63,295 nt of DNA. It comes from Candidatus Altiarchaeota archaeon (GTDB lineage Archaea; Altiarchaeota; Altiarchaeia; IMC4; QMZM01). Within the stretch, counting starts at the first letter, position 1, and every line of letters begins with the position of its first letter. The position numbers were made by a program, and so were the translations under genes. The notes under the pieces were generated by a model. The model was not told where the DNA came from. It ran no database searches and saw only the letters and a program-made list of their open reading frames with translations. Location: positions 1 to 63,295 of the forward strand of contig JAFGDV010000024.1 in assembly GCA_016931955.1 (NCBI GenBank), written 5' to 3'. Of this stretch, positions 17,567 through 28,953 are shown piece by piece.

Positions 17567-18478
17567 TCATGACACACCCCCAACCCTCTTTAACACGACA
17601 TAAAAGACCACACCAGGAAGAGACAACAACAAACACAAAAAAAACACAAACGGAGTCAACAAAAAACCAGAAAAGAAGACCAAGAGCAATAAAAGCTCCC
17701 AGGCAAAGACCCTACCCATGCCAGAATACATCAAAGCCTGAACCACCAATCGATAGGGTGGAAGCCCCTCAGAATGCGGGAAAAATAACCCAACAACAAC
17801 AAAGAAGCCGATCAAAAAACCGAATACGAGAAGAGACCCCAAAAAATACCCTATGTTATCGTATCTAGACTTCAGATAAACAAAAAAAGCTGAGGGGACA
17901 AGCAAGAAAACAAAGAAAAATACGGGATGCACATATTGCATGAAAAACAACGAGAGGATAAGGAGAAAAAGGCCGAAAACGCCCACACAGAGGCTCCTAG
18001 ATACTACTTCATCCCTCTCTCGACTCCACTTTATTCTCTCCTCAAGGATCCTTCTCCCCCCAGCATTCCGTCTCAACAAAAGCCATAAAAAGAAGTAGAA
18101 GACTGGGAGGGACTCAACAAAGACAACAAAACCCAGGACCAGTGTCCCCATAACAACGTGGAGCGCATATCTTAGGACATAAAGCAATGCGAAGAAAGGG
18201 CTCAGGGAACCTGTTCCCTCGATTTTGAAAAACAGTATAGTGCCTGTAAGCTCATACTGGCTGGGGAAGAAACCAGTCAAAGCAGAATAGAAAAAACCAA
18301 ACAAAAAACAAAGAAAGAAAAGACGTCTGCTGGTTACCTTATATAATAGACCATAGACGGCAACCAATAAAGCCACGGTATAGTAGCCAAACAATAGGGG
18401 ATAGGACAAAACAAATACAGTGAAGGTAACACCCAACATAAAAGCAAAAAACACATCCCTCAAATTATTTTTTTCCAT
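17567..18478 (-). CDS. Highly hydrophobic multi-pass membrane protein; candidate partner/immunity of the upstream gene
   Basis: ~9 hydrophobic segments; GGGGGA RBS; follows 18546-21611. Confidence 0.7.
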   Translation of the reverse strand: MEKNNLRDVFFAFMLGVTFTVFVLSYPLLFGYYTVALLVAVYGLLYKVTSRRLFFLCFLFGFFYSALTGFFPSQYELTGTILFFKIEGTGSLSPFFALLYVLRYALHVVMGTLVLGFVVFVESLPVFYFFLWLLLRRNAGGRRILEERIKWSRERDEVVSRSLCVGVFGLFLLILSLFFMQYVHPVFFFVFLLVPSAFFVYLKSRYDNIGYFLGSLLVFGFLIGFFVVVGLFFPHSEGLPPYRLVVQALMYSGMGRVFAWELLLLLVFFSGFLLTPFVFFLCLLLSLPGVVFYVVLKRVGGVS

Positions 18479-18545
18479 TCTATCCCCCTACAAACCAGGA
18501 TACCGTCTCACTAAACACGATTCCAACCATTTTAAATCAAAATCT

Positions 18546-25973: not shown

Positions 25974-25974
25974 A

Positions 25975-28953
25975 CTAATTTAAAGGGAAAATAGGATAAA
26001 TCGTAACATCAAGAGAGGATATAACTCTCTCAGGGGCGCCGCCAACAGTGTAACCTGCTTCTGGTACATGAAGCTCGTTACCTTTAACTAAAGATGGTAT
26101 CTGCGGATTTAAATTCTTTGCATCAGTAATCTGAACAACAACGACGTTACTTCCATCTCCCAAATACCCCCTTTCCATACCTAGTCTACCCTCAAGTTTT
26201 CGAACATCATCAACCTTAGTCAAATCAAGACCTTCAAAGACGCTTTTATCGGTGATGAACATATGTCCCTCAGAACCTAGATTATCAGCATGTTTTAGAT
26301 AAGTTTCCTTGAGACACACATGTATCGCCTGAGTCTCATCAAACTCCTTTGCCTTAGACGCATATTCGTACATGTCCTTTAGTACAAAGTCATCATATTC
26401 TCTAAGAGCGAATTTCAGCTGCTCTTCTCCGCCGACGTCGATTATTTTTTTCAGTCCCTGGCGGTTAAGTCCTAAACGCTCAATCGTTGATATCTGCTCT
26501 TCTTTGAAGCCGATCTTGATAAGCTCGTCTTTAGAAAGCAGGCCCGCTTCGTCTCCTAATCCGAGCCTTTTCTTAAGTCGGCATAGTATGTCATCCAAAA
26601 CACTGCCTACGTTGTCGGCTAAAGAGCCAAGGCGACCAGTTAAGCCACCGACTCTGCCAACCTCATCAACCTTACCAACGACACTCACAGCCCTCCCAAC
26701 ATCATCTGTTTTACCTAAACCTTTAAGCCAACTACCCCCTAAAATCGTGGCAGCAATCTCAAACCCAATACGGCCACCAGCCTCCCCAGGGCGGCCATTA
26801 TCAAAATCGTAGAGGATAGGTTCAAGAATCGCGTCAATGATAGCGCCCCCCGTCTCAACAGGATGGGTAAACATATAACCAAACTTAGTCGCAAGATCAT
26901 CCACAGTCTCACCAGGCTTCGTTGAAAGATTCCAACCAGTCTCCAAAGTACCATGCACAAGATGACCAAGACCCATAGCAGTATCATAGATGCCCTCACC
27001 AATACCAATCCAAGAACCCACCGTGACATCAATTATGCCATTCTCCCTCCGCTCAGACGACTGACTAGTTGTTGAGGTCGTAGTGGTCGTTGTAGTCGTG
27101 GTGGACACAACAGAAACCTGAACAGCCTCCTGAAGCAGACGATTCCATTCCTCCATCATGATGCTGGATTCGCCCATGTAGATGGCTTGATAATCAAGTG
27201 AGGGACTGTATTTAGCGTGTAGTGCGTTGATGAGTGCTTGGGTTTCGGCGCTTCCGACGGCTGCTTGGTATTCGAGGAAGCTCCGACGTTCTTCTTCTAA
27301 AGCCTTCATCTGCTGCTCCAACTCAGCTGAAGCCTTCTCCCTAGCAACCTCAAAATCCTTGTTGAAGTCTTCAGCCCAAGGATCAAACAGAGACTCACGG
27401 AACCACTTATAGGTGTCGCGGTCCAAGGAAGACTCCAACTCACAGACACTACCATTCAAGAAATCTATGAGGCCGCCGACTTCAAGGTTACCCTCCCCAA
27501 CAGCCGCAGACAAAGACGACATCACGCGGGCAACCAAATTCAAGCCCTTAGCATCCTCAGACAAACGCTGAATATCTCGGACAGAATCACGGTAACCCAG
27601 ATAAAAACCATCAAACTCACTGCCACTACGATTACGGGATTCCAGGAAATTCACAGCAGAGACCGCATCATGGAAGCTCTCATTCACGGAAGCAAGATAC
27701 GCGTCAAGGGCTGCGCCGCCAAGCTTACCCGCCTTAGAAAGAGACACCTCATAATCGCGCTTCAACTTATCCAAGATCTTATCGTAGTTGCGGTCCCAGA
27801 AAGCCTGATTACGCCACTCTTCAAGCTGTTTTTTGCGGGCTTCTTCTGCTTTGAGGCGAGCCTTCTCCTCCGCAGAAACCAGTTTATCAAAGGCGAGCTC
27901 ATCAATCTTGACAAGACATCGCTCATAGAATTCCTTCATGTCGTCGCGGACCTCACCAGCCAACTCACTGCGAAGCCGCCCCTTATCCTTCCAGCTGCTG
28001 CCGCCCTGGTAGTCGGCGGAGAACTCCTGACTGGCGGAACCAACAAGCCCTCGATATTCTTGATACAATTCCTCCGCCCGCTTCTTAACCAAGTCAACGC
28101 CGAACCAGCCCAGAGAAGACACAGTGCCCTGGAAGCCGGAGAATAAGGCATTCAAGGAAGAATAGAAAGCATTCTTGGCAGACTCCGCCTTATCTCGAAA
28201 ACGCCGATAAGCCTGATAAGCATCAATACGTGAGAGAATACCATTACTGAAGGAATAGGTCTTATTATCTAATTTAAAGCCGTAGTCTACATCAAAATCC
28301 AGCTTAGAGAGATCCTGAGACCAACTGCTGAGGGAGGAAAAACTAGACTTCACAGAGTTAAGCTCAGACGCCACTCTATCCCAGTACCTGCCAGCAGCCT
28401 CAGCACGCCACCAAGTCTTACGCCGCTTAGCCTCCCTCACCGCCGCAAAATACCTTCTCCGGGCGAGGTCGACCTCCTTCTCCAACTCAGAGATCCGGCT
28501 CCGAGCGGAATCCAGCATAGATAGATAACGCTTAAGTGAGTCCCGAGAGTAGAGAAACCATTTACCTTCTGAGTTGCGGACTGGGACTTTCTCGGCAGAG
28601 GAAGAGACTATATTTTGGAGATACTGGAGATAGCTACCTTGGTCGCTGAAAGAAGACTCAATCCATTCCTCACCGGATTTAAGCCAGAGGCTGCCGCCGT
28701 CTTCGCTGACTCGGAAGGTCCTGTTGTCTGAGATGAAACGAGGCTGCATCGATAACAGAGCATATAGTATGCTGACGACGACTGCCAGGGAAGCGAAAGA
28801 AAAGGAAGGAGAAGATATCTGGGGGGATAAGGCTTCAGATGAGCCCTGTGGGAGGGAGCCCTCTCCCGGGGGCGGGTCTATGGGGATGGCTGCTGCAATG
28901 GATGCTAGAGTGAATGCCAGCAGCAGATATAGTAGTTTGAGTCCGGGTTTCAT
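25975..28953 (-). CDS. Candidate polymorphic toxin: signal peptide, hydrophobic segment, coiled coil, Thr linker, pre-toxin helices, C-terminal toxin-like domain
   Basis: AAA|IPIDP; GIGEGIYDTAMGLGHLV..THPVETG..GEAGGRIGFEI; tip LEGRLGMERGYL..QIPS..GNEL..GYTVGGAPERVI. Confidence 0.7.
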   Translation of the reverse strand: MKPGLKLLYLLLAFTLASIAAAIPIDPPPGEGSLPQGSSEALSPQISSPSFSFASLAVVVSILYALLSMQPRFISDNRTFRVSEDGGSLWLKSGEEWIESSFSDQGSYLQYLQNIVSSSAEKVPVRNSEGKWFLYSRDSLKRYLSMLDSARSRISELEKEVDLARRRYFAAVREAKRRKTWWRAEAAGRYWDRVASELNSVKSSFSSLSSWSQDLSKLDFDVDYGFKLDNKTYSFSNGILSRIDAYQAYRRFRDKAESAKNAFYSSLNALFSGFQGTVSSLGWFGVDLVKKRAEELYQEYRGLVGSASQEFSADYQGGSSWKDKGRLRSELAGEVRDDMKEFYERCLVKIDELAFDKLVSAEEKARLKAEEARKKQLEEWRNQAFWDRNYDKILDKLKRDYEVSLSKAGKLGGAALDAYLASVNESFHDAVSAVNFLESRNRSGSEFDGFYLGYRDSVRDIQRLSEDAKGLNLVARVMSSLSAAVGEGNLEVGGLIDFLNGSVCELESSLDRDTYKWFRESLFDPWAEDFNKDFEVAREKASAELEQQMKALEEERRSFLEYQAAVGSAETQALINALHAKYSPSLDYQAIYMGESSIMMEEWNRLLQEAVQVSVVSTTTTTTTTTSTTSQSSERRENGIIDVTVGSWIGIGEGIYDTAMGLGHLVHGTLETGWNLSTKPGETVDDLATKFGYMFTHPVETGGAIIDAILEPILYDFDNGRPGEAGGRIGFEIAATILGGSWLKGLGKTDDVGRAVSVVGKVDEVGRVGGLTGRLGSLADNVGSVLDDILCRLKKRLGLGDEAGLLSKDELIKIGFKEEQISTIERLGLNRQGLKKIIDVGGEEQLKFALREYDDFVLKDMYEYASKAKEFDETQAIHVCLKETYLKHADNLGSEGHMFITDKSVFEGLDLTKVDDVRKLEGRLGMERGYLGDGSNVVVVQITDAKNLNPQIPSLVKGNELHVPEAGYTVGGAPERVISSLDVTIYPIFPLN

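What the first reader, a model, noticed from the sequence alone, without database searches (positions are those of the whole stretch)
17567..28953. Candidate archaeal polymorphic toxin locus built on an unrecognised N-terminal delivery module
Seen: two ~1000-aa genes share N-terminal blocks (AIPI(E/D)P..EGSLPQ; RY.SMLDSAR.R..ELEK; L.KLDF..D.GFK.D..TY.FSN..L..I....AYRRF; LGW..VD..K...E..Y) and a long coiled coil, but have unrelated C-termini. Between them lie small co-oriented genes, including a paralogous pair and a toxin-like fragment. Established: constant N-terminus, variable tip, downstream immunity and orphan modules define polymorphic toxin systems. Inference: this is one whose trafficking domain is none I recognise (not RHS, LXG, WXG, PAAR, CdiA or MuF).
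Basis: partly seen in the sequence, partly recalled or inferred. Interest (0 to 1): 0.8.

Follow-up and report, generated by a model that had tools for sequence, protein, structure and literature searches.

The report
Membrane-anchored swappable-tip toxin-like locus in Altiarchaeales
Two large membrane-anchored proteins of an uncultivated archaeon share a constant front part but carry interchangeable end pieces, each linked to its own small partner gene, which looks like a new archaeal version of bacterial swappable-toxin weapons, although toxicity itself is still unproven.

Summary
Genes A (25975-28953, -) and B (18546-21641, -) share ~400 N-terminal residues (30% identity, E 1e-43) and have unrelated C-termini. 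The small genes between them include a paralogous pair and an 89-aa relic of another family member's tip.

The family is tiny. It has 8 true representatives among 1.84 billion proteins, lies in 5 of 61 Altiarchaeota genomes, and matches no Pfam, NCBIfam, PADLOC, PHROG or PDB entry.

I saw five C-terminal classes in 12 proteins. Two near-identical strains are 95.6% identical in DNA up to codon ~527 and unrelated after it. Tip classes travel with their own downstream genes. The window's tip relic is followed by an intact homologue (45% identity) of the partner gene of the full-length tip elsewhere. This is polymorphic-toxin locus logic.

- The constant part is not a secreted trafficking domain. 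It is a signal peptide, a short Pro-rich stalk and one transmembrane helix, with the helical module and tip predicted cytoplasmic (positive-inside in 12 of 12; a relative has LamG domains in place of the stalk).
- No tip is shown to be a toxin. Both folds failed, and only a language-model lead points to TNT-type NADases.

Best reading: a lineage-specific polymorphic toxin-immunity-like system with an unknown delivery route (about 0.45).

The parts
25975..28953 (-). Gene A, 992 aa: family member with an A-type C-terminus
   Evidence: ORF. 30% identical to B over ~400 aa, E 1e-43. No Pfam, NCBIfam, PADLOC or PHROG hit.
28888..28953 (-). A residues 1-22: Sec-type signal peptide ending ...AAA just before IPIDP
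   Evidence: Hydropathy peak. A conserved (V/A)SA|IPI(E/D)P junction in 11 of 11 short-form members. Cleavage is inferred, not shown.
28747..28887 (-). A residues 23-69: Pro-rich extracytoplasmic stalk plus a single transmembrane helix (residues 51-69)
   Evidence: Hydropathy 2.14 over 19 aa. 0 K/R in the 15 aa before the helix and 3 after it. Homologous to the juxtamembrane segment that follows the LamG domains in the G022 relative.
27109..28746 (-). A residues 70-615: constant helical, heptad-rich module, predicted cytoplasmic
   Evidence: Conserved with P0002 and P0006 to about residue 580 and with subfamily II to about residue 410. Heptad-like segments at 126-575.
27055..27108 (-). A residues 616-633: poly-Thr/Ser linker at the constant/variable junction
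   Evidence: VSTTTTTTTTTSTTS. T/P-rich stretches lie at the same junction in other members.
25978..27054 (-). A residues 634-992: variable C-terminal region (GEGIYD-type pre-tip segment plus a ~190-aa tip)
   Evidence: No homologue of the last 193 aa in longer proteins. No PDB or Pfam match. ESM lead to TNT at rank 12, score 0.89. AlphaFold2 model unusable, pLDDT 35.6.
25098..25973 (-). a1, 291 aa: candidate cognate partner (immunity-like) of the A tip; no signal peptide
   Evidence: Its listed TTG start lies 1 nt after A's stop codon. Found only at this locus among 61 genomes of the phylum. No family hit.
24327..24983 (-). a2, 218 aa: paralogue of a1
   Evidence: 34% identity, E 2e-29. The second match in its own genome.
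23422..24165 (-). 247-aa gene with an N-terminal CpXC zinc-ribbon-like domain
   Evidence: Pfam PF14353, E 8.6e-6, 26.2 bits against a cut-off of 25.4. Role unknown.
22872..23441 (-). 189-aa gene, unknown role
   Evidence: Only sub-threshold Pfam hits: PsbP_2 E 0.01 and DUF7381 E 0.007.
22598..22867 (-). Orphan relic of a P0002-type tip (89-aa ORF, C-terminal half of the domain only)
   Evidence: 39% identity over 84 aa to P0002 residues 1002-1081. Covers profile positions 82-167 of 168, and the stop-to-stop frame is only 99 aa. No further tip remnants in the window.
21743..22588 (-). 281-aa intact homologue of the gene that follows the full-length P0002-type tip elsewhere (orphan immunity-like gene)
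   Evidence: 45% identity over 256 aa, E 9e-79, to L014 8973-9779. Starts 9 nt after the relic's stop codon.
18546..21641 (-). Gene B, 1031 aa (probably 1021 aa from 21611): family member with a B-type C-terminus
   Evidence: P0007. The C-terminal class is shared with the G025 protein (27-55% identity per 60-aa block).
20238..21611 (-). B constant part: signal peptide, stalk, transmembrane helix and helical module (P0007 residues 1-458)
18549..20237 (-). B variable C-terminal region: P-rich linker, ~37-aa Gly/Asn/Tyr-rich repeats, beta-rich part with 8 Cys
   Evidence: Sequence. Composition. No Pfam or PDB match. No DNA-level tandem repeat.
17567..18478 (-). 303-aa polytopic membrane protein downstream of B (possible partner of the B tip)
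   Evidence: ORF. No family hit. No homologue in the related loci.
24250..24346 (-). Repeat copy 1: the 3' end of a2 (..VNSGKV*) plus a promoter-like TACTCTAGAGTA element
   Evidence: (D3, I8).
21644..21719 (-). Repeat copy 2, immediately upstream of B: a non-coding relic of the same 3' end plus the promoter-like element
   Evidence: (D3, D5, I3). Together with copy 1 it brackets the block 21720-24310 (247-aa gene, 189-aa gene, tip relic, 281-aa gene).

Best explanation
The locus is a lineage-specific (Altiarchaeales) polymorphic toxin-immunity-like system.

Each large gene encodes a type I membrane protein, in this order:
- a cleavable signal peptide;
- a short conserved Pro-rich stalk outside the cell;
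- one transmembrane helix;
- a ~400-550-aa helical module;
- a Thr/Pro-rich linker;
- an exchangeable C-terminal region on the cytoplasmic side.

Recombination at the linker replaces the C-terminal region together with the gene(s) just downstream. Those genes encode the cognate neutralising partner. For the A-, P0002- and P0005-type tips the partner is a soluble protein without a signal peptide. For the B- and P0003-type tips it is an envelope protein.

The window holds two armed copies (A with a1/a2; B with the 303-aa membrane protein). It also holds one disarmed cassette: the 89-aa tip relic with its still intact 281-aa partner, kept as protection against neighbours that carry the full P0002-type tip.

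Shown here: the architecture, the breakpoint, the co-variation of tip and partner, and the relic.

Inferred: toxicity, neutralisation, and delivery to other cells. Given the topology, I guess delivery runs through membrane vesicles or cell-cell membrane contact, with the stalk (or LamG domains in one relative) displayed outside and the tip in the lumen. The P0002-type and perhaps the A-type tips may be TNT-like NAD-degrading domains. That is a lead only.
For: (1) Constant and variable parts.
- A against B: E 1e-43 over ~400 aa, with unrelated ends.
- All-against-all BLAST of 9 family proteins gives five C-terminal classes on two N-module subfamilies.

(2) Recent tip swap.
- The L015 and G025 loci are 98.0% and 95.6% identical in DNA from the upstream genes to about nt 1580 of the family gene, and show no DNA similarity after that.
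- The proteins are 85-100% identical per 40-aa block to residue ~520 and 12-38% after it.
- The B-type C-terminus of G025 matches B of the window, although their N-modules are only 37-55% identical.

(3) Tip-partner linkage.
- The P0002-type tip is followed by a 268-aa gene in L014. The window's relic is followed by its 281-aa homologue (45% identity). That is 2 of 2 loci.
- The P0005/P0009-type tip is followed by homologous 267/259-aa genes (35% identity) and 120/111-aa membrane proteins (52% identity) in 2 of 2 loci.
- The P0003-type tip is followed by a TPR protein with an N-terminal hydrophobic leader and Cys in 2 of 2 complete loci.
- In 5 of 5 soluble-partner pairs the listed start overlaps the tip gene's end or lies within 9 nt of it.

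(4) The orphan relic is truncated (profile positions 82-167 of 168), while its partner gene is intact.

(5) Same chromosomal slot, different content. Between the S8e and citramalate synthase genes and the KaiC-like gene there is one family gene in G021, two in L014, and two plus extra cassettes in the window.

(6) A direct repeat brackets the relic-bearing block.

(7) ESM Atlas features: 8 of 30 nearest clusters for the P0002 tip are TNT (PF14021) clusters at 0.93. For the A tip, TNT appears at rank 12 with 0.89.

(8) The defining features of polymorphic toxin systems are as stated in PMC3482391 (passages).
Against: - No tip matches any toxin family. Pfam finds nothing at E up to 10 on the tip pieces. 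The PF14021 model finds nothing in the whole genome at E up to 10. PDB sequence and profile searches find nothing.
- No partner matches any immunity family.
- Both AlphaFold2 models were unusable (pLDDT 35.6 and 34.4), so there is no fold evidence.
- The predicted topology puts the tip in the producer's cytoplasm, and no export apparatus is encoded nearby. A route to a target cell is pure inference.
- The variable regions are long (about 360-560 aa). The B- and P0003-types are beta-rich, repeat-containing and rich in N-x-S/T sequons, which would also fit structural or surface domains.
- The B-type tip has different downstream genes in the two loci seen: a 303-aa membrane protein in the window and a TPR lipoprotein in G025.
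- The sample is small: 12 proteins with a visible C-terminus, all from metagenome assemblies.
Confidence: 0.45

Rival explanations
1. An intracellular, membrane-tethered effector with a cognate antitoxin: a defence (abortive-infection) or addiction module. The outside stalk or LamG domain and the transmembrane helix sense an envelope event such as virus attack. The long cytoplasmic helical module transmits or releases the variable effector, and the downstream protein holds it in check. Nothing is delivered to other cells.
For: - Topology: the effector is predicted to be cytoplasmic in 12 of 12 members, and a sensor-like LamG ectodomain is present in G022.
- Soluble partners lack signal peptides.
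- Effector-domain swapping and degenerate toxin with intact antitoxin are also usual in defence and toxin-antitoxin loci (general knowledge, recalled).
- An NADase-type effector lead would suit abortive infection.
- No secretion genes lie nearby.
Against: - No PADLOC hit for any of the 13 proteins scanned.
- The locus lies in a housekeeping neighbourhood, not a defence island.
- Two classes have envelope-located partners (a lipoprotein-like TPR protein, a polytopic membrane protein). These suit protection against an incoming toxin better than an intracellular antitoxin does.
- Keeping an intact partner beside a dead tip is more simply explained by protection against neighbours.
Confidence: 0.25
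2. A variable, non-toxic cell-envelope or self/non-self recognition protein, comparable in logic to the VARTIG modules of Thermococcales. The C-terminal regions are binding or structural domains under diversifying selection, and the downstream genes are class-specific partners or receptors. In a double-membraned Altiarchaeon the helix might sit in the outer membrane, with the helical module spanning the periplasm.
For: - The variable regions are long, and for the B- and P0003-types they are beta-rich, repetitive, and rich in Cys and sequons.
- Thr/Pro-rich linkers are usual in extracellular proteins (recalled).
- No toxin domain was identified.
- VARTIG shows that PTS-like organisation exists in archaea without recognisable toxins (PMC8416519, passages).
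- Ca. Altiarchaeum hamiconexum has two membranes and a ~32 nm periplasm (PMC4460559, passages).
Against: - The positive-inside pattern is strict in 12 of 12 members and argues for insertion in the cytoplasmic membrane with the bulk inside.
- Three tip classes pair with soluble proteins that lack signal peptides.
- A truncated tip next to a conserved intact partner is hard to explain for an adhesion pair.
- The family is absent from 56 of 61 genomes of the phylum, so it is not a core envelope component.
Confidence: 0.2
3. Assembly or annotation artefact: the apparent tip swaps are chimeric metagenome contigs, and the small ORFs are not genes.
For: All sequences come from metagenome-assembled genomes. 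The starts of the small genes are only the first ATG/GTG/TTG after a stop.
Against: - The same classes recur in independent assemblies. The B-type is in the window and in G025. The P0003-type is in L013, L015, G026 and P0004. The P0005-type is in G021, L014 and P0008.
- All large ORFs are intact.
- Partner genes are conserved at 35-45% identity across genomes.
- The window sequence is held in full by one public run (share of words 1.00; that run may be the source sample).
Confidence: 0.03

Closest known systems
Bacterial polymorphic toxin systems (CDI/CdiA, Rhs, LXG, MafB and others; Zhang et al. 2012, PMC3482391, passages read)
   Same: - Large first gene with a constant N-part and a recombining C-terminal-most region.
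- A cassette-specific gene immediately downstream.
- A truncated orphan tip with a retained partner.
- Several paralogues with different tips in one locus.
- Strain-level breakpoints.
   Different: - No recognised trafficking, repeat, pre-toxin, toxin or immunity domain.
- The constant part is a type I membrane anchor with a predicted cytoplasmic helical module instead of a secreted filament or secretion-system adaptor.
- The variable region is longer (about 360-560 aa).
- The family is confined to one family of Altiarchaeales.
- Toxicity and delivery are untested.
VARTIG hypervariable modules of Thermococcales (PMC8416519, passages read)
   Same: - Archaeal.
- Long first gene with a hypervariable, recombining C-terminus.
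- Class-specific downstream genes.
- PTS-like organisation with no identifiable toxin.
   Different: VARTIG is built on extracellular Ig domains. Here there is no Ig domain: the constant module is helical and predicted cytoplasmic, the partners are soluble, and a tip relic is present.
TNT-type NAD+ glycohydrolase toxin domains (Pfam PF14021; CpnT of Mycobacterium tuberculosis, the latter recalled)
   Same: - ESM Atlas feature neighbours: 8 of 30 for the P0002 tip at 0.93, and rank 12 at 0.89 for the A tip.
- A motif order ending in GG.xQ/E that I recall from TNT. This comes from memory, not from a call.
   Different: - No HMM match: PF14021 found nothing in the whole genome at E up to 10, and Pfam scans of the tips found nothing.
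- No usable fold model.
- Catalytic residues were not assessed.
Sulfolobicins, vesicle-associated protein toxins of Sulfolobus (PMC10117752, passages read)
   Same: Archaeal proteinaceous toxins aimed at relatives and associated with membrane vesicles. This is the only documented archaeal precedent I found for the delivery route guessed here.
   Different: No sequence relation. Sulfolobicins come from a two-gene SulA/SulB operon with no modular tips. Their vesicle association is not required for activity.
Haloarchaeal contractile injection system / archaeal 'T6SS' (PMC11566945; search listing and start of the abstract only)
   Same: Contact-dependent antagonism in archaea.
   Different: No contractile-injection genes are in the window, and there is no homology.

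Membership tests
Polymorphic toxin systems (sensu Zhang et al. 2012) | [quoted passage not shown] | tested here: met
   five C-terminal classes among 12 proteins with a visible C-terminus, on a shared N-module.
Polymorphic toxin systems (sensu Zhang et al. 2012) | Tip replacement by recombination (a breakpoint at the constant/variable junction; class incongruent with N-module relatedness) | tested here: met
   DNA 95.6-98.0% identical up to about codon 527, then unrelated; the G025 tip groups with B although the G025 N-module groups with P0003/L015.
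Polymorphic toxin systems (sensu Zhang et al. 2012) | A tip-specific gene immediately downstream (immunity position) | tested here: met
   Linkage held in 2 of 2 loci each for the P0002-, P0005- and P0003-type tips. It did not hold for the B-type, which has different downstream genes in its 2 loci. A-type: one locus only.
Polymorphic toxin systems (sensu Zhang et al. 2012) | Orphan or standalone tip cassettes with immunity genes in the locus | tested here: met
   One truncated relic (22598-22867) with an intact partner (21743-22588). a2 may be a second orphan partner. No other tip relics.
Polymorphic toxin systems (sensu Zhang et al. 2012) | The C-terminal domain is a toxin (recognised toxin fold or demonstrated toxicity) | tested here: inconclusive
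   No Pfam, NCBIfam or PDB match. PF14021 absent. Only an ESM lead to TNT. Folds failed. Toxicity cannot be tested here.
Polymorphic toxin systems (sensu Zhang et al. 2012) | An N-terminal module that directs secretion or delivery to a target cell | tested here: not met
   No known trafficking domain. Signal peptide plus one transmembrane helix, with the bulk predicted cytoplasmic. Delivery itself cannot be tested with these tools.
Polymorphic toxin systems (sensu Zhang et al. 2012) | The downstream protein neutralises the tip by binding | not testable with these tools
   Needs co-expression or pull-down experiments.
TNT domain (Pfam PF14021) | A match to the family HMM at or above the gathering score | tested here: not met
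   0 matches in the window's genome at E up to 10. The tips were scanned at E up to 10 with no TNT row. P0002 was scanned at E up to 1 with no TNT row.
TNT domain (Pfam PF14021) | TNT/ART-like fold with NAD-binding residues | tested here: inconclusive
   The models had pLDDT 34-36, so no fold search was made. ESM feature similarity only.
RHS / LXG / WXG100 / PAAR / CdiA-FHA / MuF delivery modules | Presence of the corresponding Pfam domain or repeats in the constant part | tested here: not met
   No such hit in A, B or 7 homologues. The only echo is a YwqH-like hit in P0004 at E 0.03, far below the cut-off.
VARTIG modules | Ig domains in the large protein, with a hypervariable C-terminal Ig domain | tested here: not met
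   No Ig-family Pfam hit.
Known anti-phage defence systems (PADLOC-DB 2.0) | A match of any locus protein to a defence-system model | tested here: not met
   0 hits for 13 proteins at E up to 0.01.

The most novel reading that the evidence does not exclude
Altiarchaeales have invented their own polymorphic toxin system with a delivery principle not described for any such system. The toxin is the cytoplasmic tail of a type I membrane protein. A conserved external stalk (or LamG adhesin domains) acts as the address label. The protein reaches neighbouring cells inside membrane or outer-membrane vesicles, or through membrane fusion, in this double-membraned lineage. At least two tip classes are very divergent TNT-like NAD-destroying domains, neutralised by new immunity families.
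Probability: 0.15. Interest if true: 0.85.

Novelty: new variant of a known kind. Interest (0 to 1): 0.62.

Why it matters
Polymorphic toxin systems have been predicted in archaea but were not experimentally characterised as of 2021 (PMC8416519, passages). The examples described so far are recognised through bacterial-type toxin domains (PMC3482391, PMC6393860).

This locus shows the full population-genetic signature of such a system: tip swapping, tip-partner cassettes and an orphan relic. Yet every part lacks a known relative, and it lies in an uncultivated subsurface phylum.

If the tips are toxic, the locus would add new toxin and immunity families. Because the constant part is a membrane anchor with a cytoplasmic tail, it would also pose a concrete, testable question about how archaea pass proteins between cells.

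If the tips are not toxic, the locus is a second archaeal case, after VARTIG, of PTS-like hypervariability serving another purpose such as recognition or defence.

Tried and rejected
- Structure: AlphaFold2 of A 634-992 (single sequence, pLDDT 35.6) and of the P0002 tip with a 3-row alignment (pLDDT 34.4). Both were unusable, so no fold search was run.
- Complex prediction of the P0002 tip with its 268-aa partner: no verdict (score 0.01). This is not evidence either way.
- Tip homologues: none for the A tip among longer proteins, none for the P0002 tip among proteins of similar length, and none in the 61 genomes of the phylum with a tip profile.
- Partner genes: a1 was found nowhere else. The 281-aa gene gave only a weak 78-aa match in G011 (E 4.5e-4).
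- PDB sequence and profile searches for the tips, the N-module and the partners: nothing significant.
- Mobile-element origin: no PHROG hit. No match of the N-module in phage records, plasmid records or viral contigs. No tRNA gene in the window.
- A general sorting signal: the (A/S)(I/L)P(I/V/L)(E/D)P motif after a signal peptide occurs only in A and B among 5,040 frames of at least 80 aa in the genome. The 2 other motif hits are internal to unrelated frames.
- Methanogen or ANME host: no McrA.
- Expression: no RNA holder listed.
- First attempts that found nothing: the search for related loci with the broad alignment failed for lack of a conserved stretch and found nothing with A alone. A narrower alignment then worked.
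- Papers: Makarova et al. 2019 (mBio), the survey of archaeal polymorphic toxins, is not held. I could not check whether it lists this family. Searches for Altiarchaeota with 'toxin' (18 papers) and Altiarchae* with 'polymorphic toxin' (2 papers; one read in passages) turned up no description of it.

Full report
**What is in the sequence**

On the minus strand between 17567 and 28953 lie nine co-oriented ORFs:

| Label | Coordinates | Length |
|---|---|---|
| A | 25975-28953 | 992 aa |
| a1 | 25098-25973 | 291 aa |
| a2 | 24327-24983 | 218 aa |
| 247-aa gene | 23422-24165 | 247 aa |
| 189-aa gene | 22872-23441 | 189 aa |
| 89-aa ORF | 22598-22867 | 89 aa |
| 281-aa gene | 21743-22588 | 281 aa |
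| B | 18546-21641 | 1031 aa (database form starts 10 codons in) |
| 303-aa membrane protein | 17567-18478 | 303 aa |

- A and B align over A 6-410 and B 14-391 with 128/429 identities, E 1e-43, and nowhere else.
- a1 and a2 are paralogues (34% identity, E 2e-29).
- The ORF at 28965-29405 next to A is the antisense shadow of the ribosomal protein S8e gene. The same shadow ORF appears opposite S8e in a relative.

**Nothing known matches**

- A, B and their C-terminal pieces have no Pfam hit (whole proteins at E up to 0.1, pieces at E up to 10).
- They also have no NCBIfam hit, no PADLOC hit, no PHROG hit and no PDB sequence relative.
- Seven homologues are equally blank in Pfam.
- Among the small genes, only the 247-aa protein reaches a curated threshold: CpXC, 26.2 bits against a cut-off of 25.4.

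**How rare the family is, and whose it is**

- HMMER with A 1-420 read 1.84 billion representative proteins. It found 9 at E up to 0.001. Two are A and B. One is a spurious 46-residue match to an FN3-repeat protein. That leaves six other true members.
- The word-indexed search added one more, P0004.
- The window's own genome (1.55 Mb, 46 contigs, 92% complete) has only A and B.
- Among the 61 genomes held for the class, which is also the whole phylum, 5 have a match including the window's genome. All 5 are in one family: 4 of 21 other genomes of that family and 0 of 39 outside it.
- Record titles of two relatives read Candidatus Altiarchaeota archaeon and Candidatus Altiarchaeales archaeon.
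- The genome has no McrA.
- The family is absent from phage records, plasmid records and viral contigs.
- The window around the locus is ordinary chromosome: thermosome, HisRS, TFB, Thi4, citramalate synthase, dihydroxy-acid dehydratase.

**Constant front, exchangeable end**

All-against-all BLAST and alignments sort 12 proteins with a visible C-terminus into two N-module subfamilies and five C-terminal classes.

N-module subfamilies:
- Subfamily I (A, P0002, P0006) is conserved to about residue 580.
- Subfamily II holds the rest and is conserved to about residue 460-540.

C-terminal classes:
- A-type: A only.
- P0002-type: P0002, and P0006 except for its last ~85 residues.
- P0005-type: P0005 (= G021), P0008 and P0009 (≈ the second gene of L014).
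- P0003-type: P0003 (= L013), P0004, L015 and G026 (cut by the contig end).
- B-type: B and the G025 protein.

A Thr/Pro/Ser-rich stretch lies at most junctions, for example VSTTTTTTTTTSTTS in A.

The clearest evidence for recombination comes from two very close relatives at the same chromosomal slot, after hisA:
- L015 and G025 are 98.0% identical over 1,307 nt and 95.6% over 2,411 nt of DNA, up to about nt 1580 of the family gene. After that they have no DNA similarity.
- The proteins are 85-100% identical per 40-residue block to residue ~520 and 12-38% after it.
- L015 carries a P0003-type end. G025 carries a B-type end, which is 27-55% identical per 60-residue block to the window's B, even though the G025 and B front parts are only 37-55% identical.
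- The divergence between L015 and G025 continues into the downstream gene: the TPR proteins are 37-40% identical.

**Tips travel with their downstream genes**

In a 1.56-Mb metagenome contig (L014) the locus occupies the same slot as in the window, between the S8e and citramalate synthase genes and a block of KaiC-like, Roadblock-like, membrane and FIST genes. It reads P0002, a 268-aa gene, a P0009-like gene, a 259-aa gene and a 111-aa membrane protein. The same-genus genome G021 has, in that slot, P0005, a 267-aa gene and a 120-aa membrane protein.

| Tip class | Downstream gene(s) | Loci where linkage held |
|---|---|---|
| P0005/P0009-type | homologous 267/259-aa (35% identity, E 8e-51) and 120/111-aa (52%) proteins | 2 of 2 |
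| P0002-type | 268-aa gene in L014; 281-aa homologue in the window (45% identity over 256 aa, E 9e-79) | 2 of 2 |
| P0003-type | TPR protein with an N-terminal hydrophobic leader and Cys | 2 of 2 complete loci |
| B-type | 303-aa polytopic membrane protein (window); TPR lipoprotein-like gene (G025) | not held |

- In 5 of 5 pairs with a soluble partner, the partner's listed start overlaps the end of the tip gene or lies within 9 nt of it. The caveat is that listed starts are only the first possible start codon.
- a1 and a2 occur nowhere else in the 61 genomes.

**The relic**

- The window's 281-aa homologue of the P0002 partner sits directly behind the 89-aa ORF. That ORF is 39% identical over 84 residues to the very end of the P0002 tip.
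- The 89-aa ORF covers only positions 82-167 of a 168-position tip profile, and its stop-to-stop frame is 99 codons.
- No further piece of any tip class is detectable in the window.
- So the window keeps a dead P0002-type tip next to a live partner gene.
- The block holding the 247-aa gene, the 189-aa gene, the relic and the 281-aa gene is bracketed by a direct repeat. The repeat contains the last codons of a2 (..VNSGKV, stop) and a promoter-like TACTCTAGAGTA element. The second copy lies non-coding just upstream of B. This fits cassette insertion or duplication inside the locus.

**What the constant part is**

- Each short-form member begins with a basic n-region, a hydrophobic core and a (V/A)SA|IPI(E/D)P junction. 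A 25-40-residue Pro-rich segment and a second hydrophobic helix follow.
- In 12 of 12 members the 15 residues before that helix contain no Lys or Arg. The 15 residues after it contain 1-5. That is the pattern of an N-out, C-in helix.
- A distant member in G022 (at least 1,660 aa, cut by the contig end) starts with a signal peptide, then a ~950-residue Cys-rich region with two Laminin_G_3 domains (E 3e-44). It then has IPLNPETG...LPSLPFAPL plus the helix, aligned to B's IPIEPESG...LPSLPLAS plus helix (E 7e-9). The homologous helical module follows (E 3e-13), and then a Thr-rich stretch.
- So the part before the helix is the exported part. The helical module and the tip lie on the other side.
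- The stalk motif after a signal peptide occurs in no other frame of the genome.
- The helical module shows heptad-like segments well above shuffled controls. I did not run a proper coiled-coil predictor, and no confident model exists.
- One caveat: Ca. Altiarchaeum hamiconexum has two membranes with a ~32 nm periplasm (PMC4460559, passages). An outer-membrane anchor with a periplasmic tail therefore cannot be excluded for this lineage. The strict charge asymmetry argues for the cytoplasmic membrane.

**Are the tips toxins?**

This is not shown.
- The A tip has no detectable homologue, and neither does the P0002 tip.
- Both AlphaFold2 runs gave pLDDT of about 35, so I made no fold comparison.
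- The only pointer is the ESM Atlas. Of the 30 nearest clusters to the P0002 tip, 8 are TNT (PF14021) clusters at 0.93. For the A tip a TNT cluster appears at rank 12 with 0.89.
- I also recall, from memory and not from a call, that TNT domains end in a Gly-Gly-x-Gln motif after a beta-rich stretch. That resembles ...GTGGAAQIEIKGL in P0002...TSGGALQVEVKGL in the relic and ...VGGAPERVI in A.
- Against this, the PF14021 model finds nothing in the whole genome at E up to 10.
- I therefore treat TNT-likeness as a lead, not a finding.

**How it most likely works**

Shown:
- a membrane-anchored constant module;
- a recombination hot spot at the linker;
- cassettes of tip plus partner gene(s);
- one decayed tip with a preserved partner;
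- variable content of a fixed chromosomal slot among relatives.

Inferred:
- The tips are harmful activities.
- The partners neutralise them. Soluble partners would serve tips that act in the cytoplasm. Lipoprotein-like or polytopic partners would serve tips that act on the envelope.
- The preserved orphan partner protects against neighbours armed with the P0002-type tip.

Preservation of the orphan partner is the main reason I prefer inter-cell conflict (0.45) over the rivals. The rivals are a purely intracellular defence or addiction module (0.25), a non-toxic recognition or envelope function (0.2), and an assembly artefact (0.03).

The delivery route is open. With the tip on the cytoplasmic side, the simplest guess is that it is packaged into vesicles that display the stalk (or LamG domains) and fuse with neighbours. 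Vesicle-associated sulfolobicins are the only archaeal precedent I found (PMC10117752, passages). No export machinery is encoded nearby.

**Comparison with what is known, and novelty**

- The locus meets the organisational criteria of polymorphic toxin systems as stated by Zhang et al. (PMC3482391, passages). It fails the criteria of a recognisable trafficking module and a recognisable toxin.
- It resembles VARTIG (PMC8416519, passages) in being an archaeal PTS-like hypervariable module without an identified toxin. It differs in every domain and in topology.
- I found no description of it: 18 papers hold Altiarchaeota with 'toxin' and 2 hold Altiarchae* with 'polymorphic toxin', and none is about such a locus.
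- The key survey, Makarova et al. 2019, and its supplements are not held and may bear on this.
- I rate it a new variant of a known kind, of moderate to high interest. Its value depends on a simple expression test of tip with and without partner.

Noticed in passing
window 47917-63294 (+), runs off the window end: A giant open frame of at least 5,126 aa. It has two DUF2341 domains, five NosD/right-handed beta-helix stretches and a weak MG2 hit, so it is presumably a huge surface protein.
   Followed up: partly
L012 6330-11309 (G022:C6), cut by the contig end: A distant family member of at least 1,660 aa. The short stalk is replaced by a Cys-rich ectodomain with two Laminin_G_3 domains. Its C-terminal class and its neighbours are unknown.
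   Followed up: partly
window 13859-17258 (-); also L009 14336-17713 and L014 13973-15924: A conserved block flanks the locus in three genomes: a KaiC-like ATPase, a 127-aa Roadblock-like protein (named by eye, no Pfham hit), a ~230-aa membrane protein and a FIST protein. The block is not next to the family gene in the hisA-slot genomes. A functional link is unknown.
   Followed up: partly
window 28965-29405 (-): A 146-aa ORF that is only the antisense shadow of the ribosomal protein S8e gene (28996-29388, +). The same shadow ORF is conserved opposite S8e in L014.
   Followed up: yes
window 21644-21719, 22872-22903, 24250-24346: A ~36-70-nt element is repeated at gene boundaries inside the locus. 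It holds the end of a2, including its stop codon, and a palindromic TACTCTAGAGTA promoter-like motif. A related inverted copy lies upstream of A at 28973-28991.
   Followed up: partly
L013 13742-15242 (-): Downstream of the TPR gene in the hisA-slot locus are a 343-aa polytopic protein and a 155-aa protein. The 155-aa protein has a pilin-like N-terminus. I read the 343-aa protein by eye as a prepilin-peptidase-like gene. Neither was scanned against families.
   Followed up: no
window 6625-7703 (-): An adjacent nucleotidyltransferase (NTP_transf_2) gene and PIN_3 gene, a toxin-antitoxin-like pair unrelated to the finding.
   Followed up: no
window 8555-11086 (-): A second FIST-domain gene next to a V4R-domain gene. 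With 13859-15298, the window has two FIST genes.
   Followed up: no
P0006 residues ~940-1024: P0006 follows P0002 up to about residue 938 and then ends in an unrelated, Cys-rich ~85-residue tail. This may be a further tip variant or an assembly or frameshift artefact. No locus was available.
   Followed up: no
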